Source: an uncultured Actinomycetes bacterium
Lineage (GTDB): Bacteria; Actinomycetota; Thermoleophilia; Gaiellales; JAICJC01
DNA length: 64,000 nt
Direction: 5' to 3'
NCBI GenBank assembly: GCA_963809325.1
Contig: CAWEIZ010000002.1
Span: 609,745-673,744, forward strand
Below, one piece after another: positions 31,576-59,714 of this stretch; the stretch's first letter is position 1, and each line of letters opens with the position of its first letter. The notes beneath the pieces were generated by a model. The model saw only the letters and a program-made list of their open reading frames with translations, was not told where the DNA came from and searched no databases. A program made the translations under genes and the position numbers.

Positions 31576-31623
31576 TGCTGCGCTCATCACAACCGGGGGC
31601 GTTGCGGGAAACCCGATTCCCGC

Positions 31624-31641
31624 TTCGGTGCGCATACCGAT
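31624..31641. promoter_or_regulatory. stress-island dyad, site A: TTCGGTGCGCATACCGAT, 33 nt upstream of the eRF1-like gene
   Basis: One of five related dyads (see findings). Flanked by GCGGGAA / TTCCCGC / GCGGGAA repeats at 31604-31648. Confidence 0.5.
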
Positions 31642-31674
31642 GCGGGAAGTGCGGGCAGGCGCGAGAGTCGTGAT

Positions 31675-32730
31675 ATGAGCATTGATCGCAAAACCGTTCT
31701 GGCGGTGGCCCGCATGCGAGATCCGGCCGGAGTCGTGTCGATCTACGTCGACGTCGATCCGCTCGAGGCCGCATCGGGGGCCCCAACCTGGCTCGAGGAC
31801 TTCAATGTCGAGGTTCGCCGTCTGAACTGCCAGGAGCGGCTGCACGAGCTGAGTCGCGAGATCGCGGATGTGGTGGACCCGTCGCGGCACGGCCGCGGAC
31901 GGGCGCTCTTCTTCGGCGCGACGGCCGGCGGCGCCGTTCACTCGTTTGCCGTCCAGCTGCCGCTCGAGACCTCGGTGAGGCTGGCCGAGCGTCCGCACCT
32001 GCAGCCGCTGCTCGAGGCGCTCGACGGAGCTCGCCCGGCCGGCATCGTCATCGTCTCGATGGCGGAGCTCCGCGCGATCGAGCTGGCATGGGGAGAGGCC
32101 GCCGATCTGGTTCGGCGCGAGATGACTCCGCCGCCGTCGGAATGGAACGAGCGGAAGGAGCCCAACCACCTCCACGACGAGGACCGGCTCCATATCGTCC
32201 GCACCGCTGCGCCGGTCGTCGAGAAGCTCGCCCGCAACCGCGGGTGGGATCGAGTTGTCCTGGCAGGGAACCCGCGCCTCACCCGGCCGCTCGCCGCGAG
32301 GATCACGTCACACGTGGACGCGACGGTGGTCGAGGCGGTGAGGAACGTGCTGATCGAGGACGGCGCACCGCAGGTGGCGAGCCGTCTCCGCTCGCACGTC
32401 GCCACCGCCGGCGAGCGCCGGGCCGCGGCGCTGCTCGACCTGGCCCACGACGCGGCGCTTGCCGGTGGGCGGGGCGCGATCGGCGTCGACGACGTACTCG
32501 ACGCGGTCACCGAAGGCCGAGCCGCATGGGTCGCGATCGACGGTGAGGCGGCGCTCCACACGAGCGGGGTCCGGGAGCCGGCTGGAGGCGTCCGGCTGCT
32601 GCACCGCGCCGACGTGGCGGACACCATCATCGAGCGTGCGCTCGAGACGGACGCCACGCTGACCGTGCTCTCGGGGAGCACCCATCCCGCTCTGCGGGCA
32701 GCCGGTGCGGTGGCCGTCCTTCGGTGGTGA
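31675..32730 (+). CDS. eRF1-like (baeRF1 / Vms1-like) family protein, divergent
   Basis: N-terminal pattern AGVVSIYVDVDP...GRGRALFFGA...LAERPHLQPLLEAL is typical of the actinobacterial eRF1-like family. I did not find a GGxSQ-like motif. Confidence 0.5.
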   Translation: MSIDRKTVLAVARMRDPAGVVSIYVDVDPLEAASGAPTWLEDFNVEVRRLNCQERLHELSREIADVVDPSRHGRGRALFFGATAGGAVHSFAVQLPLETSVRLAERPHLQPLLEALDGARPAGIVIVSMAELRAIELAWGEAADLVRREMTPPPSEWNERKEPNHLHDEDRLHIVRTAAPVVEKLARNRGWDRVVLAGNPRLTRPLAARITSHVDATVVEAVRNVLIEDGAPQVASRLRSHVATAGERRAAALLDLAHDAALAGGRGAIGVDDVLDAVTEGRAAWVAIDGEAALHTSGVREPAGGVRLLHRADVADTIIERALETDATLTVLSGSTHPALRAAGAVAVLRW

Positions 32731-32787
32731 CGAGGTCACCGGCCAGGGCGTGAGGCGCCGGCCTCAAGGGCTGCGAGTTCCGTACGC

Positions 32788-33546
32788 CTAGCGCACCACG
32801 AGCACGGAGCCGGCGGCCCTGTGGGCGACGGCCCCGCTGACGCTGCTGAGCGCCCGCAGCCCTCGCAGCCCGCGGCAGCCGACCACGAGAAGGTCGTCTG
32901 TCGTGGCCCGCTCGATCAGCGTCGCGGCCGGCGAGCTGTCGAGCGCATGCACCGCGTCGAGGGCCGCGCCGGTGCGCCGGCTGAGCTCGTGTGCGACTGC
33001 GAGCGCGCGCGTGGACGGCTCAGACTCGTCGACGCCGACGACGATCGTGCGAGGGAACGTCGCGATCGGCGCGGCGCGGGCGATCAGCACAGAGCAGGCC
33101 GCGTCGTGGACGAGCCGCGCCGCAACGCCGCCCAGGAGTGTCCCCGGGAGCCGACCCTGCCCGTGGCTGCCCACGGCGATCATGCCCGCCTCGAGGCGCG
33201 CAGCCTCGACTGCGAGGAGCGCCGCGGCGGGCCCGGTGCGGAGCGTCGTCGTCACCTCAATCCCGCTCGAGACGTCGTGGGCCGCCTCGGCGAGCGCCGC
33301 CCAGGCCTCTTTGCGGAGCCGGCGCTCCGGCTCGGCCATCTGCGCGGGCATGACCGACGCAACCGATTCGACGAGCCCGGCATGGATCACGCCGACGAGC
33401 TCGATTCGGGCGCCGGGCGCGGCGAGAAGCGCGGCCTGGCGGACGGCCTCAGCCGCCTCTGCGGAGCCGTCGACCCCGCAGACGATCGTCGAGAGGACAG
33501 CCGCCGCGTCAATCGTCGGTACCCGAATGGAATGAAGCTCGGCCAT
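32788..33546 (-). CDS. universal stress protein (tandem Usp domains)
   Basis: IVCGVDGSAEAAEAV...MIAVGSHGQGRLPGTLLGGVAARLVHDAACSVLIAR...IVVGVDESEPS...LLVVGCRGLRGLRALSSVSGAVAHRAAGSVLVV. Confidence 0.85.
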   Translation of the reverse strand: MAELHSIRVPTIDAAAVLSTIVCGVDGSAEAAEAVRQAALLAAPGARIELVGVIHAGLVESVASVMPAQMAEPERRLRKEAWAALAEAAHDVSSGIEVTTTLRTGPAAALLAVEAARLEAGMIAVGSHGQGRLPGTLLGGVAARLVHDAACSVLIARAAPIATFPRTIVVGVDESEPSTRALAVAHELSRRTGAALDAVHALDSSPAATLIERATTDDLLVVGCRGLRGLRALSSVSGAVAHRAAGSVLVVR

Positions 33547-33579
33547 GTCGCGAGCGTACGCGCTCGGCGCCGGCGCGGC

Positions 33580-33596
33580 ATCGGGGAATGCCCGAA
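33580..33596. promoter_or_regulatory. stress-island dyad, site D (minus-strand reading TTCGGGCATTCCCCGAT), upstream of USP ATG 33546
   Basis: Same half-sites and GATGCCG flank as site C; the spacer is 1 nt shorter. Confidence 0.4.
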
Positions 33597-33623
33597 TCGG
33601 ACAGTGGTTTTCCACGCAAAGGC

Positions 33624-33675: not shown

Positions 33676-35143
33676 TCAGCGTCCGAGCGGAACCAGAGGC
33701 CGCTCTTCCTTGAACATCCGCACCGGCGGCGTTGCAACCGGAGGCGGTGGCTCGACCGGCGCTTCCTTCGACTGGCGCCAGCGCATGAACACGTACACCG
33801 GGATGCCTGCCATCAGGAGCAGGAACCCCTGCGCGATGTACTCCTCACCCGCTCCGTAGATCATCCAGAACGAGTACGTGAAGGCCAGGATGGCGATCGT
33901 CGCGTCGAGCGTCAGGCGCCGTCCGCTGAACCGCTCGCGATCGGTGAACATCAGCATCAGCTGGGCGGCCGCCGAGAATGCGTACGGCACGAGCGTGGTG
34001 AGCGTGGCCAGGATGATGATCTTCGTGAACGTGTCGGTGAGCGAGGACTGGTAGTTCATCGCCATGAGCCCGCTCAGGAGCACCGACGACGCCACGAGGC
34101 CCACGACCGGCGTCTTGCGCGTGCCGCTGACCTGTGCGAACGCCTTCGGGAAGAGGCCGTCCTGCGCCGCGGCCAGTGGCACACGGCCCTGGATCAGGAT
34201 CCAGCCGTTGAGGGCGCCGAACGTCGAGATCATCGCCACTGCGGCGATGAGCTTGTCGGGCGAGACGCCCAGGACCGACGAGCCGAAGATCTGGCGGGCT
34301 GCGTCGGCGAACGGGGCGTTCGAGTCCGGCCAGCGTCGCGGCCGGGATGACGCCCATGATCGCCACGGTGGCGAGCACGTACAGGCCCGTCGTGACGGTC
34401 GTCCCGAGGATGGTCGCCCGCGGCAGCGTCTTCTCGGGGTTCTTGACCTCTTCAGCCGGAACGGTGGCCGACTCGAGACCAAGGAACGCCCACAGGGTCA
34501 GCGTGGCCGCGAACGAGATCGCGTGCCAGTGGCCCGAGAGGCTGACGTGGTTCGGGTCAAACGGCGTGAAGTTCGCGCTGTGCATGTAGAAGAGCCCGAT
34601 CAGGCCGATCAGAAGCAGCGGCACGAACTTGAGAACCGTTGTGACGACCTGGATGATGCCCGACTCGCGCGCGCCCGCGATGTTCGCGAGCGTCAGCACC
34701 CAGATGACCGAAAGCCCGAGTGTGAACGCGAGCACGTTGTCTGTCCCGAGGCTGGGCCAGAACACGCTGGCATAGCTCACGAAGATCGTCGCGATGGCGG
34801 CGTTGCCGGCCCATGCCGCGATCCAGTAGCCCCAGGCGGTCCAGAAGCCTGCGAAGTCGCCGAACGCCCGCCGCGCATAGGCGTACGGCCCACCGGTCTG
34901 CGGGTAGGCCCGGCCGAGATTCGCAAAGACGAGCGCGAGCAGGATCGCGCCGGCTCCCGTGAAGATCCATGCGAGCAGCGAGATCGGCCCCGTCGACGCC
35001 AGTGATGCCGGAAGCCCGAAGACTCCCGATCCGACCATGTTTCCGATCACCAGCGCGGTTGCCATCCAGAGTCCAAGCGAACGCTTGAGCTTCGGACGGC
35101 CCGCCCCGGCCAGGTCGGAGTGGGTATCCGAGACGCTTGACAT
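33676..35143 (-). pseudogene. amino acid permease (APC superfamily), +1 frameshift near 34326 as assembled
   Basis: The N-terminal 2/3 (LGLWMATALVIGNMVGSGVFGLPASLA...VIPAATLA) is in the frame of 35143. The C-terminal 1/3 (SNAPFADAARQIFG...ALNGWILIQGRVPLAAAQDGLFP...) is in the frame of 34482. Confidence 0.75.
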
Positions 35144-35363
35144 GGCGTTCCCCTTCCATGAGTTGGGCGGATGATTCCGGCCCCACTATCCGTCCGCTCA
35201 GTGCCGCCCGCATCGGGGCCGGCGCCGCACCCGTCGCAGGGGAAGTACCACACGATTTGCGGGCGAATACGCACCCTCAATCGGCGATGTCCCGGATGCC
35301 GAAACGGCGCCCTGGGCACGACGATGAGTGGCACATCTCGGGCACCGTCCCAAGGGGGTCACC

Positions 35364-35582
35364 ATGGGCACGTCCACGCTCTTTCCGTCGAAGCCGGCAT
35401 CTCGGGTGACGCCGGGCGACACGGCTTGGCCGTCCCCGACGGAGCTCGTGTGCGGCGAGTGCGGCTACGCGGTCACCGCGCGCCGTGAGATCCCGCACTG
35501 CCCGATGTGCGGTGCTCCGGGCGCCTGGAAGGCGCCGGCGACCCGCTACCGCAGCGCACCCTCGATCCGCCGCGCCAGGTAG
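35364..35582 (+). CDS. small zinc-ribbon (CxxC...CPxC) protein
   Basis: GGGGG RBS-like run before the ATG; ...ELVCGECGYAVTARREIPHCPMCGAPGAW...; the 3' end overlaps the convergent oxidoreductase gene. Confidence 0.4.
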   Translation: MGTSTLFPSKPASRVTPGDTAWPSPTELVCGECGYAVTARREIPHCPMCGAPGAWKAPATRYRSAPSIRRAR

Positions 35583-36661
35583 GGCGCGAGGAACGGCGCG
35601 GCGATCTTGTCGGGGGGCGACCAGAACGGCTGGGTTGTCGCGACCGACGAGAGCTCTTCACCGTCTCGGATGTGGCTCGAGAGGTAGCGCGGGCCGTTTC
35701 CGGTGAGGAGCACGCTTCGGATGACCGGCCGGAACGGCTCGGGCAGGATGGCTGCTCCCGCCTCGGCCGCGATGACCTGCGCCACGGCGTCGGCCTGCTG
35801 AGCGGCGATGCCGCCCTGCTTCACCGAGTAGTTGGTGATGTCCCCAGCGGCGAAGACGTTCGTCAGGCCCTCTACGCGGCCGTACTCGTCGACCGGGATG
35901 AACCCGCCCTGCACATGCGGGACGCCGTCGAGCTCGATGGCCTGCTGTGCGGGCAGCGCCACGAACCGGTCCGCCTCGACCGTGCCGGACGGCGCCAGCG
36001 TCAGCCTGCCGTCGTCCACGCCCATCGGAATGACGCCGGCGACCAGCGTGATGCCGTGCTCGCCGAGGAGCTCTGCCACCGCCCGGCTCGCCGCCGGGCC
36101 GAGCACGCCGAGCGGCTCGTCCTCGGGCGTGACGAGCGTCAGCTCCGCCTCGTGCTTCGCCGGCCGCCGGGCGGTCATGAGAGCCAGCTCGTACATCGGA
36201 AGCGGCCACACCGTTCCGTGGGGGACGATGAACACGACCGACGCGACCTCGCCGGCATCGATCTCGTCGAGAATTCGCCGGTAGGTTTCGACGTCCGCCA
36301 GCCCCGCGAAGGTCGAGGCCCCGGGGACCGCGGAGACGAGCTTCGTCCCGCACGCGATGACGAGTGCGTCGTACTCGGCGCTCGTTCCGTCGTCGAAGAT
36401 CGCCCGGCGGCCGGCGTTGTCGACCCCGGCGAGCCCGTTGATCCGCAGCGTCGCCCCGACGTCGGCCGTGATCTCCCGGAGGTCGAGCATGTGGACGTGG
36501 CCACGCCCGAAGGGCTCCGAGACGACAAGCGGCCGGTACGCGAACGCCGGCTCAGGGGACGCCAGCTCGACCGAGACCAGGTCGGGCGCGAGTGCGCGTA
36601 GCGCGAGCGCCGTCTCGATGCCTGCGACGCCTCCGCCCGCGATGAGAACGCGGAACTGCAT
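35546..36661 (-). CDS. FAD-dependent pyridine nucleotide-disulfide oxidoreductase (SQR/NDH-2-like), paralog 1
   Basis: MQFRVLIAGGGVAGIETALAL...YDALVIACG...VFAAGDITNYSVKQGGIAAQQAD; paralogous to 59819-60943. Confidence 0.8.
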   Translation of the reverse strand: MQFRVLIAGGGVAGIETALALRALAPDLVSVELASPEPAFAYRPLVVSEPFGRGHVHMLDLREITADVGATLRINGLAGVDNAGRRAIFDDGTSAEYDALVIACGTKLVSAVPGASTFAGLADVETYRRILDEIDAGEVASVVFIVPHGTVWPLPMYELALMTARRPAKHEAELTLVTPEDEPLGVLGPAASRAVAELLGEHGITLVAGVIPMGVDDGRLTLAPSGTVEADRFVALPAQQAIELDGVPHVQGGFIPVDEYGRVEGLTNVFAAGDITNYSVKQGGIAAQQADAVAQVIAAEAGAAILPEPFRPVIRSVLLTGNGPRYLSSHIRDGEELSSVATTQPFWSPPDKIAAPFLAPYLARRIEGALR

Positions 36662-36750
36662 GCGCCGAAGGATCCGCTTTCGGCCGTCCGAATGCATCCG
36701 TGCAGACCCCGGGTTCCATTTCGGGAAAGCCGCAAACGGCCGTCGCCGGA

Positions 36751-36768
36751 TTCGGTGCCGGCACCGAT
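36751..36768. promoter_or_regulatory. stress-island dyad, site B: TTCGGTGCCGGCACCGAT, between the divergent oxidoreductase and hsp20 genes
   Basis: The inner 14 nt, CGGTGCCGGCACCG, is a perfect palindrome; followed by GCGGGAAG as in site A. Confidence 0.5.
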
Positions 36769-36818
36769 GCGGGAAGGGCGTCTGCGGTCAGAATTCAAGC
36801 TGGAGAGGAGGTGACGCC

Positions 36819-37247
36819 ATGACGACCATGACGACATGGGATCCCTTCCGGCAGATGGAGCGGTTCGAGCAGGAGCTGGGGAAGTTCTTCGCCCGCCCGA
36901 ACACTCCGACCGGGACATGGATGCCCGCAGTCGACGTCGAGCAGACTCCGACGGAGCTCGTCTTCACGTTCGACCTTCCGGGCATCTCGCCTGACGATGT
37001 CAGCATCGAGCTGCACGATCGCACGCTGACGGTCTCGGGCTCGCGCGAGGAGAAGCGCGACGAGACGCACGAGGGCTATCACACGCACGAGCGCGTGTTC
37101 GGCCAGTTCGGTCGCAGCTTCTCGCTGCCGTATGCTGTCAAGCCGGACGAGATCAAGGCTGAGTTCGCCAAGGGCGAGCTGGGCATTCACGTGCCACGTC
37201 CAGCCGAGGCGCAGCCTCAGCGGATCGAGATCGCCGCGAAGGAGTAG
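36819..37247 (+). CDS. Hsp20/alpha-crystallin family small heat-shock protein
   Basis: GGAGAGGAGG RBS; WDPFRQMERFEQEL...WMPAVDVEQTPTELVFTFDLPGISPDDVSIELHDRTLTVSGSREE...FGRSFSLP...AEFAKGELGIHVPR. Confidence 0.9.
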   Translation: MTTMTTWDPFRQMERFEQELGKFFARPNTPTGTWMPAVDVEQTPTELVFTFDLPGISPDDVSIELHDRTLTVSGSREEKRDETHEGYHTHERVFGQFGRSFSLPYAVKPDEIKAEFAKGELGIHVPRPAEAQPQRIEIAAKE

Positions 37248-37315: not shown

Positions 37316-37942
37316 CTACTGGAGCAGGCGAGGCGCCGTCAGGATCTCGGTCATCCGAGTCGCCTGGGGGAAGTGCTCGGGCGACTCCGCGATCTCGCGG
37401 AGCTGTGACGCCGCCCCCGGCCCTGTGAACACGAAGATGACCTCGGTGTCGCCGAGGAACACCTCGGGGTGCTCGAAGCTCTCGCCGGGAAGGCCCAGCG
37501 GGTGATCGTGTGCGAGCGCGCGCTCGAGATCGGCGCGCTTTCCAGGACGGATCTCCGCGAGGATCGCGACCCGGTCGTTGATGACCGGTCCCTGGGCGCC
37601 GTCCAGCGGGCGGACGTCCTCGCGTACCGAGGCAATGGCGTTCTGCAGCTGGTGCGCGGCTCCCCAGCCGCCGAGCAGGAGCTCGACGACGACTTCGCCG
37701 TCGGGGCCGCCGACCGCCACCGCGGGGGACGGACGCCACCGGTTCAGCCCGACGCCGGTGATCTGGTCCGCAGGCATCCGCAGCGTCCGCCGCAGGCCTC
37801 CGGGCGGCGTGCCCTCGAGCACGAAGTCGTGGCCGTCGACGCGCGCACGCCCGAGGTGGCGCCTGTGGTTCTCGTCCGTCCACGCGACCGCGTACTCCAC
37901 GACGGCCGTGTGACCCAGCGGCTTCATTGAATGTTCGGCCAT
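37316..37942 (-). CDS. hypothetical protein; the C-terminal half is related to the 56984-57289 protein
   Basis: The start MAEHSMKPLG is preferred over 38011 because site E lies upstream of it. The C-terminal pattern VAILAEIRPGKRADLERAL...FEHPEVFLGDTEVIFVFTG resembles ILYVAQIDPARREELLETF...LERHTVFIGPRHVAFLFEG. Confidence 0.55.
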   Translation of the reverse strand: MAEHSMKPLGHTAVVEYAVAWTDENHRRHLGRARVDGHDFVLEGTPPGGLRRTLRMPADQITGVGLNRWRPSPAVAVGGPDGEVVVELLLGGWGAAHQLQNAIASVREDVRPLDGAQGPVINDRVAILAEIRPGKRADLERALAHDHPLGLPGESFEHPEVFLGDTEVIFVFTGPGAASQLREIAESPEHFPQATRMTEILTAPRLLQ

Positions 37943-37998
37943 GCTCAGAGGATCGTCCGCTGCGCGCGAAAGTGCGTCGGGGTCGACACGGAATCGGC

Positions 37999-38015
37999 TT
38001 CGGGAAAACACCGAA
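37999..38015. promoter_or_regulatory. stress-island dyad, site E: TTCGGGAAAACACCGAA, in the divergent region 37943-38070
   Basis: Perfect TTCGG-N7-CCGAA; the minus-strand reading is TTCGGTGTTTTCCCGAA. Confidence 0.4.
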
Positions 38016-38070
38016 CCCGCGGTGGCCGGCGGGAGGCTAGGATCGGCGACCGACTGCGAGGGGGTGCCAG

Positions 38071-50845: not shown

Positions 50846-50967
50846 CCACCTCGGGCTTTCCACAGGCCGCGATCAGGCCCGGCCCCGATGCCTGCGCGGG
50901 GCGGGCGCGGCGATACTGAGGTCGGTGAGAGTCCTCTCACCTCGAGAGGTCACACTGAGAGCCAGAG

Positions 50968-53111: not shown

Positions 53112-53183
53112 CTCACTCCCGCTTCCTACGGTGGGAGACGACGCCGCACGACCGCGGCGCCCCCGACCGTAGGAGGATCGTTT

Positions 53184-53922: not shown

Positions 53923-54824
53923 TGCAGACGGCCGCCAATATCGCGACGACTGCCGCCTGGGAGTGGCCGGCCACCGGCACCACCTGGCGCATCCATCACA
54001 CGGGCGGCGTCGACTCCGGCCTCGCCGCGACGATCGCGCAGGCGGTCGAGCGCGACGAGGCCCGCTGGTCGCGCTTCCGGCCCGAGAGCGAGGTCGCGCG
54101 TGTGAACGCGTCGGCGGGCCGGCCGGTTCCCGTCTCGTCCGCGACGCTCGACGTGGTCGAGGCGTGCGTCTACTGGATCCGGTCGACGGGCGGCGTCTTC
54201 CAGCCGCTCGTGGGCGGTGCGCTGGTCGCCTGGGGCTACCGCCGCAGCCTGGCCGACCGCAAGGCCTACGCCGAGTCGAGCCCGGACCCGCGCCGGCTGG
54301 AGGGCCGCCCCCAGGTCGATCGTGTCCGGCGGACGGTGCAGATTCCGGCCGGGACGAGGCTCGACCTCGGAGGGATCGCAAAGAGCTGGATGGCGTGCCG
54401 GGCCGCCGCACTCGTACGCGGCCGGTGTGACGACCCCTCGATCCTCGTCGACGCGGGCGGCGATCTCGTCGCGGCGCGCGGCCGGCACCTGGTGGCGGTC
54501 GAGGACCCTCGCGATCACGACGCCCCGCCGATCGCGCGGGTGTGGGTCGGCGAGGGACAGGGGATCGCCACGTCCGGCTTCGGCCGGCGCAGGTGGCAGA
54601 ACGGCGACGGCCGCCCCGCCCACCACCTGATCGATCCCGAGACCGGTGCGCCCGGACCGAGGACGCACGCCACCGTGGTCTCGGACGATCCGGTGGCCGC
54701 GGACGTCCTGGCGAAGCTCCTCACGCTCCGGCCGGGGCGGATCGCCGCGCTGGAGGAGGCCGCCATGGTCCTGAGCGACGGCGCCCTCCGGACGACCGCC
54801 GCCTGGACGGAGGTGGCGGAGTGA
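53922..54824 (+). CDS. FAD:protein FMN transferase (ApbE family)
   Basis: ...WSRFRPESEVARVN...LDLGGIAKSWM...ATSGFGRRRW...HHLIDPETGAP; TGATG overlap. Confidence 0.8.
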   Translation: MQTAANIATTAAWEWPATGTTWRIHHTGGVDSGLAATIAQAVERDEARWSRFRPESEVARVNASAGRPVPVSSATLDVVEACVYWIRSTGGVFQPLVGGALVAWGYRRSLADRKAYAESSPDPRRLEGRPQVDRVRRTVQIPAGTRLDLGGIAKSWMACRAAALVRGRCDDPSILVDAGGDLVAARGRHLVAVEDPRDHDAPPIARVWVGEGQGIATSGFGRRRWQNGDGRPAHHLIDPETGAPGPRTHATVVSDDPVAADVLAKLLTLRPGRIAALEEAAMVLSDGALRTTAAWTEVAE

Positions 54825-55399
54825 TCCTCTGGGACGTCGCGCGGGCGAGCGCATTCGTGGCCTTCGCCTGCTACACGCTGGTCGTCGCCTGGGGCATTGC
54901 GCTGAGCGCGCGCGTCTGGCGCCCGCCGGCTCCCCATATGGCCTATCACCGGTTCCTGGCCTCGCTCGGGCTGGTCGCGGTCGGGATCCACATCGGCGCG
55001 CTGATGCTCGACCGCTACGCCCGCGTGACGGTTCGGTCGCTCGTCGGGCTCGACCCGCGGCCGGGCGTCGTCGTCGGTGCCGCCGCGCTCTGGCTCGTGC
55101 TCGCGCTGCCGCTGTCGTTCAAGCTGAAGCAGGCGCGGTGGATGAGCCAGCGGGCGTGGCGCTCGCTGCACTACTTCGGCTACTCGGTCTGGGCGCTCTC
55201 GCTGGTGCACGGCATCGCGGCCGGGACCGACTCGCGATCGGTCTTCGCGCTTGGAATCTACGGCGCGTCGGCCGCCATCGTCGGCGGAGCGGCGTGGTAC
55301 CGGTGGCTCGAGCGCCCGGCACCGGCCCCCGGGCGCGCGCCGGCGCGCGACCGGCTGCCCGCCCGGGCGGCCCTCGAGATCGAGGGGAGCGAGCCGTGA
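54821..55399 (+). CDS. ferric reductase-like transmembrane domain protein
   Basis: Multi-TM protein with conserved His residues (YHRFLASLGLVAVGIHIGA..., SLHYFGYSVWALSLVHGI); GTGA overlap. Confidence 0.65.
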   Translation: MILWDVARASAFVAFACYTLVVAWGIALSARVWRPPAPHMAYHRFLASLGLVAVGIHIGALMLDRYARVTVRSLVGLDPRPGVVVGAAALWLVLALPLSFKLKQARWMSQRAWRSLHYFGYSVWALSLVHGIAAGTDSRSVFALGIYGASAAIVGGAAWYRWLERPAPAPGRAPARDRLPARAALEIEGSEP

Positions 55400-56514
55400 G
55401 CGCGGCCCGCTCGGTGACGGTGGTCGGAAACGGCGTCGCCGGCTACGCGTGCGCGCGCCGCCTGGCCGAGTCCGGCGTCGCGGTGACGCTGATCGGCCCC
55501 GGCCTGCCCTGCGATCGCCCCCCGCTCTCGAAGCGCGCGCTCGTGCGCCGGGCGGCGCCGTATCTGGCGACGGCCGACGGCCTCGCCGCGGCCGGAATCC
55601 GCCATCTCGACGGTTGGGCCGTCGAGCTCGACCTTCCGCGCCGGCGGCTCGGCGTGCAGTGCACGGCGCGGGGTGAGATCCACGAGCATGCCTTCGAGGA
55701 GCTCGTGTGGGCGACCGGCCTGCGCCTGACGCGTCCCCCGATCCCCGGAATCGGGGTGGCCCACCAGAACGCCGACCCGGCGGGGCTCGAGGAGCTTCTT
55801 CCCCGCCTCGAGCGGCCGGGTCGGCGGGTGGCGGTCATCGGAGCCGGGCTCATCGGCACCGAGACCGCCGCCACGTTGTCGGCGGCCCATCGCGTCACGC
55901 TGGTCGAACGGGGCGATCTGCCGTTGAGCCGGCTTCACAGCGCCGTCGGAGCCGAGGCCAAGCGGGTGCTTGCCGCGCTCGGCGTCGCGTTCGCCGGGGG
56001 CTGCAGCCTCGAGCGCATCGTTCCCATCCCCGGCGGCTCGCAGCTCATCCAGACGTCGACCCACGGGCGGATCGCGGCCGACGTCGTGATCGTCGCGGCC
56101 GGGGTCACCTCGACGCTGCCGCCTGCGCTCGGCGCCGGGCCCACCGTCGATACCGACGAGCGGCTCGCGGTCGAGGGTCTCGACGGCGTCTGGGCGTGCG
56201 GCGACACCGCCGCCTTCCCGCACCCGCGGTTCGGCCGCATCGCGATCCCGCATTGGGACAATGCCCGCGCCGGCGGCGACCACGTCGCGCGCGCGATCCT
56301 GGGGTCGCGCGCGCCGTTCGAGCGGGACCCGTACTGGTTCTCGGACATCGGCCCGCTGCGTGTGCAGCAGGTCGGGTTCGAGCCCGCCGTGTGCGAATGG
56401 TCGGTGCGCGACGGGCTTCACGTCGGTTGCGCGGACGACGGCCGGGCCGCGTGCGTCCTGCTTCTGAACTCCCCCCAACGATTGAACGATGCCCGCCGCC
56501 TGCTGGCGGCCTGA
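55396..56514 (+). CDS. NAD(P)/FAD-dependent oxidoreductase (ferredoxin reductase-like)
   Basis: VTVVGNGVAGYACARRL...VAVIGAGLIGTETAATL...VWACGDTAAF; GTGA overlap. Confidence 0.8.
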   Translation: MSAARSVTVVGNGVAGYACARRLAESGVAVTLIGPGLPCDRPPLSKRALVRRAAPYLATADGLAAAGIRHLDGWAVELDLPRRRLGVQCTARGEIHEHAFEELVWATGLRLTRPPIPGIGVAHQNADPAGLEELLPRLERPGRRVAVIGAGLIGTETAATLSAAHRVTLVERGDLPLSRLHSAVGAEAKRVLAALGVAFAGGCSLERIVPIPGGSQLIQTSTHGRIAADVVIVAAGVTSTLPPALGAGPTVDTDERLAVEGLDGVWACGDTAAFPHPRFGRIAIPHWDNARAGGDHVARAILGSRAPFERDPYWFSDIGPLRVQQVGFEPAVCEWSVRDGLHVGCADDGRAACVLLLNSPQRLNDARRLLAA

Positions 56515-56538
56515 CCAACCCCGAGAGGAGACGACCCG

Positions 56539-56733
56539 ATGGACACCCAGCTCATCATCGACCCGGACACGTGCGTCGGATACGGGGAGTGCGTCGCCGA
56601 GGACGCGTCCGCCGTCGAGCTCGACGAGAACGGCTGCGCGCGGGCTCTCGTGCCGCTGCTTGCCCGCGACCGGGCGGAGCGGCTCTGCTCCGCGTGCCCG
56701 GTCGGCGCCATCACGCTCAGGTCTGCGGCCTAG
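56539..56733 (+). CDS. small ferredoxin
   Basis: MDTQLIIDPDTCVGYGECVAEDASAVELDENGCA...CSACPVGAITL. Confidence 0.8.
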   Translation: MDTQLIIDPDTCVGYGECVAEDASAVELDENGCARALVPLLARDRAERLCSACPVGAITLRSAA

Positions 56734-56739
56734 AGTAGA

Positions 56740-56999
56740 GATGAGTGACCGATAACTCCCGCGCGCGTGGACGCCCGCCGCTTCGGAACGGCGAACCGGG
56801 GAGAGGCTGTGGCTGCGAACCGTCGCATCGCGGCGTCCTCGGTCGCCCCGATATTTCAATCAATATCGCCCGCCGGCGTCTGCGTCATCGCAGACGCCTT
56901 CCGAACCCTGTCAAGCCGTGCCGGCTTGACAGGTCCTGCGTCCTTGCGCTACTCGGTTCTCGCCACCCAGAACATCACGGGAGTTATCGATCACTCATC
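56740..56999 (-). ncRNA. candidate structured RNA, copy 1 (260 nt; 22-bp closing stem, conserved core, two extra hairpin insertions)
   Basis: Closing stem 56740-56761 / 56978-56999. Its only mismatch is C.A on the plus strand, which is G.U on the minus strand. Core blocks are near-identical to 63590-63794. No conserved ORF. Confidence 0.4.
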
Positions 57000-57289
57000 C
57001 CCCGCCGCCAATCGAACACGGCGGTGAGCGCCTCGGGCGCCTTGACCGCGCCGGCCAGCTCGATCACCTGGAGCTGCAGGTCGTGGTCGTCCGCCAGGCG
57101 GCGCACGACGGCATCCGGATCCAGGCCCTCGAACAGGAAGGCGACGTGCCTGGGGCCGATGAACACCGTGTGCCGCTCGAGCTCGGTCGCCGCGATGTCG
57201 TAGGGCGGCTCCCCGGAGAACGTCTCGAGGAGCTCCTCGCGGCGGGCGGGGTCGATCTGGGCGACGTAGAGGATCTCTGTTCCGGCCAT
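56984..57289 (-). CDS. hypothetical small protein, last gene of the USP-ATPase unit
   Basis: MAGTEILYVAQIDPARREELLETFSGEPPYD...HTVFIGPRHVAFLFEG...; the stop codon lies inside the closing stem of the element above. Confidence 0.6.
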   Translation of the reverse strand: MAGTEILYVAQIDPARREELLETFSGEPPYDIAATELERHTVFIGPRHVAFLFEGLDPDAVVRRLADDHDLQLQVIELAGAVKAPEALTAVFDWRRGMSDR

Positions 57290-57333
57290 CCGTGGTCGAG
57301 GATAGCGCGACGGGGCCGTCGTGCGGAAGGTGG

Positions 57334-59193
57334 TCACGAGCGACCGCCACCCAGGGCCCGGAGCGCGTTCAGGATCACGGCGACGTCGATGACCTCCTGG
57401 AACACCGCGCCCGACACCGGCGGCAGGTATCCGGCGGCGGCGAACGCCATGCCCACGATGCTGAGCCCCAGGCCGGCGATGACGCTCTGGCGGGCGATCC
57501 GGATCGATCGCCGGCCGATGCTCACCGCGCGGGCGACGCGATCGATGCGGTCGACCGCGATCACCGCGTCCGCGGCCTCCGACGCGATGGTGGCGCCGGC
57601 CGCGCCGAGCGCGATGCCGACGTCGGCGAGCGCCAGGGCCGGCGCGTCGTTGATCCCGTCGCCGACCATCACGATCGGGCTCAGGTCATCGCGAGCGGCG
57701 AGCGAGCGGACGAGCTCCAGCTTGTCCTGAGGCGACTGCCTGGCGTAGATCCGGTCGACGCCCGCCGCGCGGCCGATGGCCTCTGCCGTGGTCTCGACGT
57801 CTCCCGTGGCGAGGGCCACGTACCGGACACCCGATCTGCGCAGGTCGGCCACGAGCCCCCCGGCATCCTCGCGCAACCGGTCCGACATCACGATCACGGC
57901 GACGACGCGACCGTCGGCCGCCACGGTGACGCGCGCCTCGCCGTCCGCGGCCGCGCCCTCGTCGGCCAGAGCCTCGGGCTGGGCCGCGTGCGCCGCCACG
58001 AACGCTGCGCTTCCGACAGCGACCGGCCGTCCGTCGACGTCGCCCGCGATGCCCTGTCCCGCGTCCTCCCGCACACCGCTCGGCATGCTGAGCCGGAGTC
58101 CGCGATCCGACGCCTCCCGCACGAGCGCTGCGGCCATGGCGTGCGAGGAGAACTGGTCGAGCGACGCCGCAATCCGCAGCGCCTCGCTCGCAGGGATGCC
58201 GTCCGCGGTCAGGATCCGGTCGACCTGAGCCGTTCCCAGCGTCAGCGTCCCGGTCTTGTCGAAGAGCACGGTGCGCGCGCGGCCCAGCGCCTCGATGACG
58301 GCACCGCCCTTCACGATCACGCCCTCCCGCGCCGCCCGGGACACGCCCGAGATGAACGCGATCGGCGCGGCCAGGATGAGCGGGCACGGCGTCGCAACCA
58401 CCAGCACCGCGACGGCCCGTCGTGGGCTCCCGCTGACCGCCCACGCCGAGCCGGCCACCACGATCGTCACCGGCAGGAACACGGCTGCGTAGCGGTCGGC
58501 CATCCGGACGAAGGGCGCCTGACTGCCTTCGGCGTCGCGCACGAGCCGCACCAGGGCGGCGTACGTGCTGCCCGACGCCGGCGTCGTGGCCTCGAGCTCG
58601 AAGGCCTCGCCGGCATTCGTGCAGCCGCCGCGCGCCGTCGCACCGGTGTGCAGCGTGCGCGGCAACGGCTCGCCGGTCAGCGCCGAGTCGTCGACGATGG
58701 CCTCGGCGCTCTGGACGATGCCGTCTGTGGGGATCACCTCGCCGGCCCGGACGAGCAGACGGTCTCCGACCCGCACCTCGTCGACCCCGATCCGCTCGAC
58801 AGCATCGCCCGTGATCCGGTTCGCCCACTTGGGCGCTCGGTCGACCAGGAGCGTCAGCTCCCGGCGGGCCCGCCCCTGCGCGAAGAGCTCGAGTGCGTTC
58901 CCCCCGGCGAGCATCAGCGCGATCACGGCCCCCGCCAGGTACTCGCCGATCGCCAGCGCGCCCGCCATGGCCAGGAGCGCGATCGCATCCACGCCGACGT
59001 CACCGTGAAGCAGCGACCTCCCGACCGAGATCGAAAGCGGGATCAAGAGGGCGAGCGTCGACGCCGCCCAGATGGTGCTCGCGGCGGCGTGCGCTCCCGC
59101 GAGATCGAGCACCCCTCCTGCAACCAGGCTGACGGTGGCCGCGCCCGGCAGGAGGAGGCGTGTCTCCATGGCCGTGCGCGGCAGACCGGGCAT
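57334..59193 (-). CDS. heavy-metal-type (P1B) P-type ATPase, with no N-terminal metal-binding domain and TM motif PCP
   Basis: DKTGTLT, VMVGDGINDAPALA, ATPCPLILAAP, TGEPLP. The start is 59193 or 59169. Confidence 0.85.
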   Translation of the reverse strand: MPGLPRTAMETRLLLPGAATVSLVAGGVLDLAGAHAAASTIWAASTLALLIPLSISVGRSLLHGDVGVDAIALLAMAGALAIGEYLAGAVIALMLAGGNALELFAQGRARRELTLLVDRAPKWANRITGDAVERIGVDEVRVGDRLLVRAGEVIPTDGIVQSAEAIVDDSALTGEPLPRTLHTGATARGGCTNAGEAFELEATTPASGSTYAALVRLVRDAEGSQAPFVRMADRYAAVFLPVTIVVAGSAWAVSGSPRRAVAVLVVATPCPLILAAPIAFISGVSRAAREGVIVKGGAVIEALGRARTVLFDKTGTLTLGTAQVDRILTADGIPASEALRIAASLDQFSSHAMAAALVREASDRGLRLSMPSGVREDAGQGIAGDVDGRPVAVGSAAFVAAHAAQPEALADEGAAADGEARVTVAADGRVVAVIVMSDRLREDAGGLVADLRRSGVRYVALATGDVETTAEAIGRAAGVDRIYARQSPQDKLELVRSLAARDDLSPIVMVGDGINDAPALALADVGIALGAAGATIASEAADAVIAVDRIDRVARAVSIGRRSIRIARQSVIAGLGLSIVGMAFAAAGYLPPVSGAVFQEVIDVAVILNALRALGGGRS

Positions 59194-59205
59194 CGGGCGT
59201 TGCGG

Positions 59206-59643
59206 TCAGGCTTCGATCGCCGACGACTCTGCGGCCTCGACCCCGTGTCCCGTGTAGCCACCGGGGACGACGAGCACCGGGCACGTGGCGATCGGCAGCA
59301 GGCGCTGCGTTGTGCTTCCCAGCACTGCGCCGGCGAACGGCCCGCGGCCGCGGCTGGCGATCACGATCAGCTCGGCCTCGGCTTCCCGAGCGACTTCGGC
59401 GATCATCTGCGCCTCGTCGCCGAACAGCGAGTCGCGGACGATGATGGAGGTCTCGATGCCGGACCGGGAGAGGTGCTCAACGTGAGCGTGGAGCGTGTCC
59501 TCGATCGCGGTTTCGAGCGCGTGCGTGCGGGCGTGCGCAACCACGATCCGGGCGCCTTCCCGGCGCGCGTACGCCTCGGCGACGGGGATCGCCCGATTGG
59601 AGCCTTCCGATCCATCGAGTGCGAGAACGATTGTGGTGTACAT
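59206..59643 (-). CDS. universal stress protein
   Basis: MYTTIVLALDGSEGS...LIVIASRGRGPFAGAVLGSTTQRLLPIATCPVLVV. Confidence 0.9.
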   Translation of the reverse strand: MYTTIVLALDGSEGSNRAIPVAEAYARREGARIVVAHARTHALETAIEDTLHAHVEHLSRSGIETSIIVRDSLFGDEAQMIAEVAREAEAELIVIASRGRGPFAGAVLGSTTQRLLPIATCPVLVVPGGYTGHGVEAAESSAIEA

Positions 59644-59696
59644 GGCAACACCTCCGTGTCGTTCTCACCATGGTTGCGTGTGGACCTCCGGGCGGC

Positions 59697-59714
59697 ATCG
59701 GGGCGGGTACCGAA
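59697..59714. promoter_or_regulatory. stress-island dyad, site C (minus-strand reading TTCGGTACCCGCCCCGAT), between the divergent USP and oxidoreductase genes
   Basis: Same spacing as sites A and B; followed by GCCGC. Confidence 0.45.

What the first reader, a model, noticed from the sequence alone, without database searches (positions are those of the whole stretch)
31604..59714. Conserved dyad TTCGG-N7/8-CCGA(T/A) in five promoter regions of stress genes (candidate regulon operator)
Related dyads occur at five sites:
- A, 31624-31641: TTCGGTGCGCATACCGAT|GCGGG, 33 nt before the eRF1-like gene.
- B, 36751-36768: TTCGGTGCCGGCACCGAT|GCGGG, between the divergent FAD oxidoreductase and hsp20.
- C, 59697-59714: minus-strand reading TTCGGTACCCGCCCCGAT|GCCGC, between the divergent USP-ATPase operon and the paralogous FAD oxidoreductase.
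- D, 33580-33596: minus-strand reading TTCGGGCATTCCCCGAT|GCCGC, before a tandem-USP gene.
- E, 37999-38015: TTCGGGAAAACACCGAA, between the 37316-37942 gene and a Gfo/Idh/MocA oxidoreductase.

A, B and C share identical spacing. D and E are 1 nt shorter. A to D also share the GATGC(G/C)G extension, and A to D have a (G)GGAA(A/C) box 10-22 nt upstream.

By a rough base-composition estimate, the minimal pattern is expected about once per 64 kb by chance. Here there are five hits, all intergenic and all next to stress-type genes.

The motif differs from the mycobacterial DosR box, the HspR HAIR element and HrcA CIRCE as I remember them.
Basis: seen in the sequence. Interest (0 to 1): 0.7.

Follow-up and report, generated by a model that had tools for sequence, protein, structure and literature searches.

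The report
Hypoxia/dormancy regulon operator in actinobacterial promoters
The repeated dyad is real: it is a conserved 18-bp operator next to a weak -35 element in about ten promoters of a dormancy-type gene cluster of an uncultured Gaiellales-like actinobacterium, most likely bound by a neighbouring oxygen-sensing two-component regulator, so it is a new variant of the mycobacterial DosR system.

Summary
All five sites exist as described. TTCGG-N7/8-CCGAW gives 7 matches (6 loci) against 0.82 expected. I collected 24 sites from the window and metagenomic relatives. The motif is WTCSGKG-N4-CMCSGAW and is only partly symmetric. In 23 of 24 sites it sits 20-22 nt upstream of a NANNNT -10 hexamer. 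Several genes are leaderless, with the ATG 6 nt after the hexamer. This puts the dyad centre at about -42.5. The "GGGAA box" is a second conserved element, TGCGGRRAAVCCCG, lying 19-21 or 30 nt upstream of the dyad.

The window holds about ten such promoters: a Balon/Rv2629-like hibernation factor, universal stress protein (USP) genes, Hsp20, two Pyr_redox_2 genes, an amino-acid permease and a USP-P-type ATPase operon. Relatives add narK-narGHJI and the arginine deiminase operon. Site E is probably the upstream box; the canonical site there is 37976-37993(-).

A relative 89% identical in DNA shows that a DevS/DosT-type heme-GAF kinase and a NarL/FixJ-family regulator lie a few kb beyond the window's right end. 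A palindromic copy of the motif sits in their own promoter region. The regulator's DNA-binding domain is FixJ-like, not DosR-like. No classical DosR box is present. Nothing here is tested experimentally.

The parts
31624..31641 (+). Site A dyad TTCGGTGCGCATACCGAT, promoter of the Balon/Rv2629-like baeRF gene (31675-32730)
   Evidence: Orthologous sites occur in L002, L003, L004, L005, L007 and L008. The NCBIfam hit to the ribosome hibernation factor families is below the curated cut-off.
31603..31616 (+). Upstream box TGCGGGAAACCCGA of promoter A (consensus TGCGGRRAAVCCCG)
   Evidence: The box is conserved 19-21 nt (A, C and D types) or 30 nt (B type) before the dyad.
31663..31668 (+). -10-like hexamer GAGAGT, 21 nt after the dyad and 6 nt before ATG 31675 (leaderless)
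   Evidence: Orthologues have GACAGT, GAAAGT, GAGAGT or GAGACT at the same place.
33580..33597 (-). Site D (18-nt register ATTCGGGCATTCCCCGAT), promoter of the tandem-USP gene (32788-33546,-). The -10 TACGCT is at 33553-33558 and the ATG at 33546 is leaderless. The box is at 33604-33617.
   Evidence: Orthologues are L002 TTCCGGGCGATCCCCGAT, L006 TTCGGGGCGATCCCCGAT and L005 TTCCGGCCATTCCCCGAT.
35212..35229 (-). Site F TGCGGCGCCGGCCCCGAT (weak left arm), promoter of the amino-acid permease (ATG 35143). The -10 GATAGT is at 35185-35190.
   Evidence: The right arm and the GATAGT hexamer are conserved in L002 and L005.
35280..35297 (+). Site ATCGGCGATGTCCCGGAT, promoter of the 72-aa rubredoxin-like zinc-ribbon gene (35364-35582). 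The -10 GACGAT is at 35320-35325.
   Evidence: This is a weaker assignment, with 22-nt spacing.
36696..36713 (-). Site CCCGGGGTCTGCACGGAT (CGGAT variant of the right arm), promoter of Pyr_redox_2 #1 (35546-36661,-). The -10 GATCCT is at 36669-36674.
   Evidence: Orthologues in L002 and L005 read CCCGGAT, then 21 nt, GATGCT, 6 nt and ATG.
36751..36768 (+). Site B dyad TTCGGTGCCGGCACCGAT, promoter of hsp20 (36819-37247). The box is at 36720-36736 and the -10 CAGAAT at 36789-36794.
   Evidence: L005 has TTCGGTGAAGACACCGAT and L002 has TTCCGTGCCTTCACCGAT: the arms are kept and the spacer changes.
37976..37993 (-). Site E' TTCCGTGTCGACCCCGAC, the canonical promoter site of the conserved unknown gene 37316-37942(-). 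The -10 GATCCT is at 37949-37954 and the ATG at 37942 is leaderless.
   Evidence: The L002 orthologue reads TTCCGTGCCGGCCCCGAC, then 21 nt, GATCCT, 6 nt and ATG.
37999..38015 (.). It is probably the upstream-box element (TTCGGGAAAAC). It may also serve the Gfo/Idh/MocA gene (ATG 38071; TAGGAT 38038-38043, 22 nt downstream).
   Evidence: It is identical in L005. In L002, which lacks the Gfo gene, only TTCGGAAAAAC survives.
59697..59714 (-). Site C dyad TTCGGTACCCGCCCCGAT, promoter of the USP (59206-59643,-) plus P-type ATPase (57334-59193,-) operon. The box is at 59721-59735 and the -10 AACCAT at 59670-59675.
   Evidence: Orthologues are in L134 (identical dyad, GACCAT), L137 (TTCCGTACACCCCCCGAT) and L138 (TTCGGTGACCACGCCGAT).
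59742..59759 (+). Site GTCATGGCGGCCACCGAT (weak left arm), promoter of Pyr_redox_2 #2 (59819-60943). The -10 TAGCCT is at 59781-59786.
   Evidence: Orthologues are in L134, L137 (TTTGGTGGTGTCACCGAT, then TAGCGT) and L138.
50872..50889 (+). Possible site G ATCAGGCCCGGCCCCGAT, upstream of the OmpR-type regulator and kinase (50968-53111). The -10 GATACT is at 50912-50917.
   Evidence: It is conserved in the close relative L134 but not in L002, so it is uncertain.
29189..30250 (+). Group-1/2-type sigma factor gene, syntenic with the cluster. It is a candidate partner sigma and is not itself preceded by the motif.
63792..63999 (-). 3' end of a USP gene. By synteny it leads, beyond the window, to two more USP genes and then the DevS-like kinase and the NarL/FixJ-type regulator.
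   Evidence: blastn shows collinearity with L134.

Best explanation
The dyad is the operator of a hypoxia/dormancy-type regulon.

The inferred promoter layout runs from upstream to downstream as follows:
- an upstream box, TGCGGRRAAVCCCG, centred near -66 or -76;
- the 18-bp imperfect palindrome WTCSGKG-N4-CMCSGAW, spanning about -51 to -34 with its centre at -42.5;
- a weak -35 hexamer ATGCSG, whose first two bases (AT) are the last two of the dyad;
- a 17±1 bp spacer;
- a NANNNT -10 hexamer;
- often a leaderless start codon 6 nt later.

A dimeric activator bound at -42.5 would recruit RNA polymerase carrying a primary-type sigma, possibly the group-2-like sigma encoded in the cluster. This is how DosR works at hspX.

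The most likely activator is the NarL/FixJ-family response regulator encoded a few kb beyond the window's right end. It sits next to a DevS/DosT-type heme-GAF sensor kinase. An orphan PAS-GAF kinase next to narK may feed into it as well. The regulator would also control its own operon.

What is shown: the sites, their conservation, their fixed phasing, the gene content, the synteny with the two-component system, and the FixJ-like DNA-binding domain.

What is inferred: the transcription start sites, that the site activates rather than represses, and which protein binds it.
For: **Site statistics and positions**
- TTCGG-N7/8-CCGAW gives 7 matches against 0.82 expected. Five of the six loci are intergenic.
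- In 23 of 24 sites a NANNNT hexamer lies 20-22 nt after the dyad. The background chance is 0.058 per site.
- In the baeRF, USP, unknown-gene and Pyr_redox promoters the ATG/GTG start codon follows the hexamer by 6-7 nt. The N-termini of these proteins are conserved.

**Footprinting**
- The arms, the box and the -10 are conserved across L002-L008 and L134-L138, while spacers and flanks diverge.
- No sigma-70-consensus promoter is found in any of these intergenic regions. This fits dependence on an activator.

**Gene content**
- The gene set matches the DosR regulon: Hsp20, USPs, a P-type ATPase, Pyr_redox_2 and a Balon/Rv2629-like hibernation factor (PMC10901736).
- Relatives add narK-narGHJI-USP-pfkB and the arginine deiminase operon.

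**The candidate regulator**
- L134 is collinear with the window at about 89-91% identity. Just beyond the window's end it carries three USP genes, a GAF-GAF-HisKA_3 kinase and a regulator with receiver and GerE domains.
- The same layout is found in L137, which is on the same contig as L002, and in L138.
- The kinase's first GAF domain matches DosT (1.5e-40) and DevS (about 1e-36).
- The intergenic region between the two-component system and the USP genes holds a palindromic site. In L137 it is ATCGGGGCGCCCGCCGAT. It is phased to a -10 hexamer on both strands.
- The regulator is 88-96% identical across the three lineages, and its helix-turn-helix is invariant.
- The best solved match to its DNA-binding domain is FixJ (8e-12). 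DevR scores only about 1e-5.

**Fit to known systems**
- The FixJ site at fixK, TAAGTAATTTCCCTTA, reads as TAAG-N8-CTTA. FixJ sites are described as 18-bp imperfect palindromes (PMC4999443). This is the same 4-8-4 geometry as TCGG-N8-CCGA.
- FixJ SELEX class GTAGTTTCCC has the reverse complement GGGAAACTAC, which shares GGGAAAC with the upstream box.
- The DosR box at hspX is centred at -43.5 next to a suboptimal -35 (PMC13486717).
Against: - There are no expression, transcription-start or binding data.
- The -10 and start-site assignments rest on sequence pattern and start-codon position only.
- The regulator is not in the window. It is linked only by synteny with a relative 89% identical in DNA and by co-localisation.
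- The promoter-proximal arm (CCGAT/CGGAT) is much better conserved than the distal arm. The distal arm is weak or absent in sites F, Pyr1, Pyr2 and G. Part of that conservation could reflect contacts with sigma or the -35 element rather than with a dimeric regulator. Part is also ascertainment, because several sites were found by searching for the right arm.
- On the kinase side of the autoregulatory site the spacing to the -10 is 19 nt, not 20-22.
- The looser half-site model is only weakly enriched in the window.
- FixJ's own motif is poorly defined in the literature. The 4-8-4 match was made by inspection.
Confidence: 0.62

Rival explanations
1. The site is a real operator at about -42 but is bound by a different regulator, for example a Crp/Fnr-type protein, the OmpR-type regulator at 50968-51651, or an unknown protein. 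On this view the neighbouring NarL/FixJ-type regulator is only a regulon member.
For: - nar and arginine deiminase operons are classic FNR/ANR targets (general knowledge).
- The OmpR-type regulator and kinase are syntenic with the cluster.
- The regulator was assigned by co-localisation only.
Against: - No Crp/Fnr gene lies in the window or in the cluster loci.
- OmpR-family proteins normally bind direct repeats with 10-11 bp periodicity, whereas the best sites are 6-4-6 palindromes.
- GTG-N4-CAC does not fit CRP (N8) or FNR (TTGAT-N4-ATCAA).
- The two-component system sits at the centre of the cluster in three lineages, with a palindromic site in its own promoter region.
Confidence: 0.17
2. 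The same dyad is a repressor operator. The bound protein occludes the -35 region, and the genes are derepressed under stress.
For: - The site overlaps the -35 region.
- Unphosphorylated FixJ has been reported to repress nif promoters in R. palustris (PMC13327599).
Against: - The phasing is rigid (20-22 nt to the -10) across at least 10 unrelated promoter families. This is typical of activators that must touch RNA polymerase, and repressors do not need it.
- The promoters lack a consensus -35.
- DosR and FixJ act as activators from the same positions.
Confidence: 0.1
3. CCGATGC is the -35 element of a dedicated alternative sigma factor, for example the sigma encoded at 29189-30250, and there is no separate DNA-binding regulator.
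For: - The spacing to the -10 is fixed.
- The right arm plus GC is the best-conserved block.
- The sigma gene is syntenic with the cluster in the window, L002 and L005.
Against: - The sigma's region 2.4 ([12 protein letters not shown]) and region 4.2 (TRERVRQLE) match primary sigmas. It should therefore read TANNNT and TTGACA-like elements.
- Strong conservation continues at -51..-45 and at -72..-58, beyond the reach of a sigma factor.
- Palindromic copies serve divergent promoters on both strands.
- The arm can read CGGAT as well as CCGAT, symmetrically with the S at position 4 of the left arm.
Confidence: 0.08
4. The dyads are transcribed hairpins (an attenuator, a terminator or a REP-like repeat) rather than protein-binding DNA.
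For: Site A can form an extended hairpin, TTCCCGC..GCGGGAA, around the dyad.
Against: - There is no compensatory change. Pair 4-15 is C·C in 13 of 24 sites and pair 1-18 is T·T in 17 of 24.
- The extended A stem is absent from orthologues.
- No T-tract and no terminator-like site is found.
- No Rfam family matches.
- At several sites only 33 nt remain before a leaderless start codon.
Confidence: 0.02

Closest known systems
DosR/DevR-DevS/DosT dormancy regulon of Mycobacterium tuberculosis (Dev box TTSGGGACTWWAGTCCCSAA), and OsdR/OsdK of Streptomyces (AGGGCCGATCGGCCCT)
   Same: - The sensor is a heme-GAF kinase (GAF-A matches DosT/DevS at 1e-36 to 1e-40), and there is also an orphan second kinase next to USP-pfkB, as with dosT-Rv2028c-pfkB.
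- The regulator belongs to the NarL family.
- The target genes correspond: Hsp20 to hspX, USPs, a P-type ATPase to ctpF, Pyr_redox_2 to Rv1812c, the Balon-like factor to Rv2629, plus narK and pfkB. The Mtb gene names are from memory.
- A palindromic box centred about -43 abuts a poor -35 (PMC13486717).
- The regulator appears to control itself from beside USP genes.
- The outer arms TTCGG/CCGAA are the same.
   Different: - The arms are 2 bp closer (18 bp against 20 bp).
- The core GGGAC-N4-GTCCC is absent (1 match against 6 expected).
- Position 4 may be C.
- The regulator's DNA-binding domain is only distantly DevR-like (about 1e-5). The position aligned with DosR's core DNA-binding lysine K182 is Glu (K182 role from PMC5999986).
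- No NCBIfam equivalog is reached.
FixL-FixJ oxygen-sensing system of rhizobia (FixJ sites at fixK and nifA)
   Same: - The best solved match to the regulator's DNA-binding domain is FixJ (8e-12). The recognition helix is RTVEAHRA, against RTVEVHRA or RTIEVYRA in FixJ.
- FixJ sites are 18-bp imperfect palindromes. TAAGTAATTTCCCTTA reads as TAAG-N8-CTTA, the same geometry as TCGG-N8-CCGA.
- A second class of FixJ site contains GGGAAAC, like the upstream box.
- FixJ footprints at fixK cover -69..-44 and -57..-31 (PMC4999443). This resembles the box-plus-dyad layout.
   Different: - The sensor is a GAF-heme kinase, not a PAS-heme FixL.
- The arm sequences are GC-rich (TCGG rather than TAAG).
- The regulon is a large dormancy-type gene set rather than a short cascade through fixK and nifA.
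- The host is an actinobacterium.
- Over its full length the regulator matches VraR and NarL better than FixJ.
Class II (about -41.5) activator-dependent promoters, e.g. FNR/ANR at nar and arcDABC
   Same: - The site overlaps the -35 region and the phasing is fixed.
- The -35 is poor.
- The anaerobic targets are the same: nitrate reductase and arginine deiminase.
   Different: - The motif does not fit TTGAT-N4-ATCAA.
- No Crp/Fnr gene was found in the loci examined.

Membership tests
DosR/DevR regulon (Dev box) | A 20-bp palindromic box with the GGGAC-N4-GTCCC core (the OsdR variant is GGGCC-N4-GGCCC) | tested here: not met
   GGGNC-N4-GNCCC occurs once in the window, inside a gene, against 6.0 expected. 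The sites here are 18 bp, TTCSG-N8-CSGAT.
DosR/DevR regulon (Dev box) | A heme-binding GAF sensor kinase of the DevS/DosT type | tested here: met
   The L134 kinase has GAF-GAF-HisKA_3-HATPase architecture. Its GAF-A domain matches DosT 2vzw at 1.5e-40 and DevS at about 1e-36. It lies outside the window and is linked by 89% identical synteny.
DosR/DevR regulon (Dev box) | The regulator is a DosR orthologue with the K179/K182/N183 DNA-contact residues | tested here: not met
   DevR ranks sixth among full-length solved matches. For the DNA-binding domain alone it scores about 1e-5, against 8e-12 for FixJ. The ungapped alignment puts R, E and A at the positions of K179, K182 and N183. K182's role is taken from PMC5999986; the other two are from memory.
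DosR/DevR regulon (Dev box) | Regulon content: hspX-type Hsp20, USPs, ctpF-type ATPase, narK, pfkB, Rv2629-type factor | tested here: met
   Pfam and NCBIfam hits support the gene identities. Relatives carry narK-narG, USP and pfkB. Each of these genes is preceded by the motif, except pfkB, which has no site of its own but lies downstream of the site-bearing narK promoter in L130.
DosR/DevR regulon (Dev box) | A proximal box centred about -43.5 next to a suboptimal -35 | tested here: inconclusive
   The centre is inferred at -42.5 to -43.5 from the -10 hexamers and leaderless starts. No consensus promoter was found. Transcription start sites are not mapped.
FixJ-type response regulator and FixJ box | A FixJ-like helix-turn-helix (recognition helix RT[VI]E.[HY]RA) | tested here: met
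   The top solved match is 5xso FixJ at 8e-12, with the alignment shown. The helix is invariant in three lineages.
FixJ-type response regulator and FixJ box | An 18-bp imperfect palindrome (TAAG-N8-CTTA) and a second class of site containing TTTCCC | tested here: inconclusive
   The geometry (4-8-4) and GGGAAAC match by inspection against the sequences quoted in PMC4999443. The arm bases differ, and there are no binding data.
FixJ-type response regulator and FixJ box | A partner kinase of the FixL type (PAS-heme) | tested here: not met
   The adjacent kinase is GAF-GAF. NCBIfam FixJ scores 90.7 bits against a cut-off of 255.
Alternative-sigma promoter | A sigma factor with divergent -35/-10 recognition residues | tested here: not met
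   Regions 2.4 and 4.2 of the cluster sigma match primary sigmas.
Structured RNA / REP element | Compensatory base-pair changes, or a match to an Rfam family | tested here: not met
   The pair counts show no compensation. Rfam gathering thresholds gave 0 hits.

The most novel reading that the evidence does not exclude
An uncultured Gaiellales-type lineage kept the DosR-style dormancy module: the DevS/DosT heme-GAF sensors and nearly the same target genes, including a Balon-type ribosome hibernation factor. It runs this module through a regulator with a FixJ-type DNA-binding domain and a new 18-bp operator plus an upstream GGGAAAC box. That would be a case of regulator and operator replacement under a conserved sensor and regulon.
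Probability: 0.4. Interest if true: 0.55.

Novelty: new variant of a known kind. Interest (0 to 1): 0.45.

Why it matters
- It would define the cis-element, and a testable candidate regulator, for the hypoxia/dormancy response of Gaiellales-like soil actinobacteria, which are uncultured.
- It would allow the regulon to be predicted from metagenome-assembled genomes. The predicted members are ribosome hibernation, USPs, Hsp20, nitrate respiration and arginine fermentation.
- It gives a natural comparison for how the DosR-type circuit evolves: the sensor and targets stay the same while the operator spacing and the DNA-binding domain change.
- It is not a new principle of regulation.

Tried and rejected
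- **Rfam at gathering thresholds on the whole window:** no hit.
- **Classical DosR/OsdR box scan:** depleted, not enriched.
- **Dedicated sigma hypothesis:** I took it seriously because the right arm plus GC is the best-conserved block and a sigma gene is syntenic. I rejected it as the main explanation after seeing primary-type recognition residues and conservation reaching -72.
- **Metagenome-wide scan for TTCSGTGNNNNCACCGATGCS:** Almost all hits were chance matches, from sequence of very mixed GC content and apparently mostly coding. Only 20 of 120 had a -10-like hexamer, and none of the 8 best candidates whose downstream ORF I read had stress genes or a convincing upstream box.
- **Adjacent regulator for the orphan PAS-GAF kinase next to narK:** there is none. 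The search did confirm the narK site in L130.
- **Regulators inside the window:** only MarR, GntR and an OmpR-type regulator with its kinase; no LuxR or Crp type.
- **The conserved unknown 208-aa protein, the 72-aa zinc-ribbon protein and the 117-aa ORF:** no informative family hit. I did not pursue them as regulators.
- **Direct-repeat (OmpR/PhoB-like) reading of the motif:** considered and dropped. The implied period is 12 bp, and the best sites are 6-4-6 palindromes.
- **Look-up of the window's own ATPase, to extend past the window end:** failed. A 90% cluster member provided the extension instead.

Full report
**Observation**

The five sites are in the sequence exactly as described. TTCGG-N7/8-CCGAW gives 7 matches, which are 6 loci because the palindromic site E is counted twice. 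The expectation from dinucleotide-preserving shuffles is 0.82, and none of 100 shuffles reached 7. The sixth locus (46573-46590) lies inside a 2-hydroxyacid dehydrogenase gene and is the expected chance hit. The other five are intergenic. The window has 70-75% G+C.

**Genes next to the sites**

- A Pfam baeRF_family10 protein (31675-32730). It also hits NCBIfam's MSMEG_1130-family and Rv2629-family ribosome hibernation factor models, below their cut-offs. This is the Balon family (PMC10901736).
- A tandem universal stress protein (USP) gene.
- An amino-acid permease.
- Two paralogous Pyr_redox_2 oxidoreductases.
- Hsp20.
- A conserved gene of unknown function.
- A Gfo/Idh/MocA oxidoreductase.
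- A USP plus E1-E2 ATPase operon.
- A group-1/2-type sigma factor (29189-30250), 1.4 kb upstream of site A.

**Anatomy**

I aligned the sites on the right arm. Every one is followed, 20-22 nt later, by a hexamer of the form NANNNT:

| Site | Hexamer |
|---|---|
| A | GAGAGT |
| B | CAGAAT |
| C | AACCAT |
| D | TACGCT |
| E (plus strand) | TAGGAT |

Across the 24 sites collected from the window and its relatives, 23 have such a hexamer. The background chance is 0.058 per site.

In the baeRF, USP, unknown-gene and Pyr_redox promoters the start codon follows the hexamer by 6-7 nt, and the encoded N-termini are conserved. These are therefore leaderless genes. If the A of the ATG is +1, the hexamer occupies -12..-7, the T of CCGAT is at -34, and the dyad spans -51..-34 with its centre at -42.5.

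It reads as a weak -35 hexamer ATGCSG (T at -34, G at -33) with a 17±1 bp spacer.

A consensus sigma-70 scan finds no canonical promoter in any of these intergenic regions, and no terminator-like site.

The same architecture occurs upstream of these genes:
- the permease (35212-35229,-);
- the 72-aa zinc-ribbon gene (35280-35297,+);
- Pyr_redox_2 #1 (36696-36713,-; right arm CGGAT);
- the unknown gene (37976-37993,-; TTCCGTGTCGACCCCGAC, then 21 nt, GATCCT, 6 nt, ATG);
- Pyr_redox_2 #2 (59742-59759,+);
- possibly the OmpR-type regulator operon (50872-50889,+).

Each divergent intergenic region therefore holds two back-to-back sites, one for each direction.

In L002, which lacks the Gfo gene, only that half survives.

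**Comparative evidence**

The baeRF protein has homologues only in metagenomes. I fetched their contigs (L001-L005) and four MAG loci labelled "uncultured Actinomycetes" (L006-L009).

In relatives whose baeRF is 38-70% identical, the orthologous promoters keep four things: the upstream box, the arms, the -35-like TGC and the -10 hexamer. Spacers and flanks change.

| Promoter | Sites in different lineages |
|---|---|
| hsp20 | TTCGGTGCCGGCACCGAT / TTCGGTGAAGACACCGAT / TTCCGTGCCTTCACCGAT |
| baeRF | TTCGGTGCGCATACCGAT / TTCCGTGAGCGTCCCGAT / TTCCGTGCGCGTCCCGAT / TTCCGTGCCCGTACCGAT |

The Stackebrandtia locus, whose baeRF is 24% identical, has no such motif.

The information profile shows strong positions at T1, T2, C3, G5, G7, C12 and 14-20, and in the box at -22..-9. 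Positions 14-20 are partly ascertained, because several sites were found by searching for the right arm.

Symmetry is partial. Pairs 2-17, 3-16 and 5-14 hold in 20-24 of 24 sites. Pair 4-15 is C·C in 13 sites and pair 1-18 is T·T in 17. Nothing is compensated. Together with the lack of any Rfam hit, this rules out an RNA hairpin.

The box lies 19-21 or 30 nt before the dyad. The two spacings differ by one helical turn.

**Regulon content in relatives**

The motif also precedes the following:
- an MFS (narK-like) gene followed by narGHJI-USP-pfkB, next to an orphan PAS-GAF-HisKA_3 kinase (L004 and L130);
- a RimK-like gene divergent from baeRF;
- an alcohol dehydrogenase gene (L004);
- the arginine deiminase / ornithine carbamoyltransferase / carbamate kinase operon, with a perfect ATCGG-N8-CCGAT, in three lineages.

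This is a hypoxia/dormancy gene set very like the M. tuberculosis DosR regulon. The Mtb gene names I use for comparison are from memory.

**Which protein binds**

The window encodes no LuxR- or Crp-type regulator. The cluster sigma has primary-type residues in regions 2.4 and 4.2. It should therefore read TANNNT and TTGACA-like elements, so CCGATGC is unlikely to be a private -35 element.

The decisive lead came from L134. This contig is collinear with window 46505-63999 at about 89-91% nucleotide identity. Just beyond the window's right end it carries three USP genes. Divergent from them are a GAF-GAF-HisKA_3 kinase and a 209-aa regulator with receiver and GerE domains, followed by the arginine deiminase operon. 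The same layout occurs in L137, which is on the same 592-kb contig as L002, and in L138.

- **Kinase.** Its first GAF domain matches the heme domains of DosT (1.5e-40) and DevS (about 1e-36). Homologues 88% identical are labelled Gaiellales. This, is my basis for the taxonomic guess.
- **Autoregulatory site.** The short region between the two-component system and the USP genes holds a palindromic copy of the motif. It reads ATCGGGGCGCCCGCCGAT in L137 and ATCCGCGGGCGCCCGGAT in L134. Toward the USP genes it is phased 21 nt from AACACT. Toward the kinase's leaderless GTG it is phased 19 nt from TATTCT.
- **Half-site model.** These copies show that the half-site is WTCSGKG, with position 4 free in both arms. 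This explains the CGGAT variants.
- **Conservation.** The regulator is 88-96% identical across the three lineages, with an invariant helix-turn-helix.
- **Family.** Over its full length it resembles VraR, NarL and DesR more than DevR, and it reaches no NCBIfam equivalog. Its DNA-binding domain is most like FixJ (8e-12, against about 1e-5 for DevR).
- **Recognition helix.** It reads RTVEAHRA, against RTVEVHRA or RTIEVYRA in FixJ. The residue aligned with DosR K182 is Glu. K182 is called the core DNA-binding lysine in PMC5999986.

**Comparison with known operators**

- The DosR consensus is TTSGGGACTWWAGTCCCSAA (quoted in PMC2275270). The OsdR consensus is AGGGCCGATCGGCCCT (PMC5069765). Both share GGGNC-N4-GNCCC, which is absent here.
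- The outer arms TTCGG/CCGAA are the same as in the DosR consensus but set 2 bp closer together.
- The DosR box at hspX is centred at -43.5 next to a suboptimal -35, and DosR contacts sigma region 4 and the alpha subunit (PMC13486717). That is the same geometry as inferred here.
- FixJ's fixK site TAAGTAATTTCCCTTA reads as TAAG-N8-CTTA, and FixJ sites are described as 18-bp imperfect palindromes. A SELEX class, GTAGTTTCCC, has the reverse complement GGGAAACTAC.
- FixJ protects -69..-44 and -57..-31 at fixK (PMC4999443).
- The 4-8-4 geometry, the GGGAAAC box and the two-site layout all parallel what is seen here. These parallels were made by inspection and are leads, not proof.

**Verdict**

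The best explanation has confidence 0.62. It is a class-II-type activator site for a FixJ-like NarL-family regulator driven by DevS/DosT-type heme kinases, controlling a DosR-like dormancy regulon in a Gaiellales-like actinobacterium.

The rivals are a different binding protein, repression rather than activation, a dedicated sigma factor, and an RNA structure, in decreasing order of likelihood. No paper in the searchable library links Gaiellales to DosR.

I rate it a new variant of a known kind, of moderate interest.

Noticed in passing
window 39187-39206(+), 39216-39235(-), 10804-10823(-): An exact 20-nt repeat, TGCCTGATGCCAATGTTTCA, occurs three times against 0 expected. Two copies form a 20-bp-stem hairpin with a 9-nt loop between convergent genes. 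The third lies between two other convergent genes. It could be a REP-like element, a terminator or an operator.
   Followed up: partly
window 33676-35143 (-): The amino-acid permease is split into two overlapping ORFs in the window. It is intact (488-489 aa) in the near-identical contig L001 and in L002 and L005. This is a frameshift: either an assembly error or a pseudogene. A similar split affects the RimK-like gene in L002.
   Followed up: partly
window ~30300-31575 (+): An OLD-family ATPase/TOPRIM gene (a defence-type nuclease) sits between the sigma factor gene and the Balon-like gene. In L005 those two genes are adjacent. L002 and L006 carry a RimK-like ATP-grasp gene there instead, and L004 a degenerate remnant of it upstream of the Balon-like gene, so this is a variable insertion point.
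   Followed up: partly
window 31675-32730 (+): The 'eRF1-like' gene belongs to the Balon / Rv2629 / MSMEG_1130 ribosome hibernation factor superfamily. Its NCBIfam hits are below the curated cut-offs, so it may represent a separate subfamily. It is leaderless and heads the cluster.
   Followed up: partly
window 50926-50941 (+); also L002 and L134: A conserved inverted repeat, GTGAGAGTCCTCTCAC, lies in the leader of the OmpR-type regulator and kinase operon. It is probably that system's own operator.
   Followed up: no
L004 8512-10731; L130, L131, L132, L133: An orphan PAS-PAS-GAF-HisKA_3 kinase always follows an AlkZ-like gene. It is followed either by narK-narGHJI-USP-pfkB or directly by USP-pfkB. 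This mirrors the dosT-Rv2028c-pfkB arrangement of M. tuberculosis (recalled from memory).
   Followed up: partly
L134 1-1262(-), L137 12542-15791, L138 15310-18550: The arginine deiminase, ornithine carbamoyltransferase and carbamate kinase operon lies immediately downstream of the regulator and has a perfect ATCGG-N8-CCGAT site. The regulon's amino-acid permease (window 33676-35143) may be the matching arginine/ornithine transporter.
   Followed up: partly
window 35364-35582 (+): A 72-aa protein with a rubredoxin-like CxxC...CPxC zinc ribbon is conserved in L001, L002 and L005. It is transcribed divergently from the permease. Its function is unknown.
   Followed up: no
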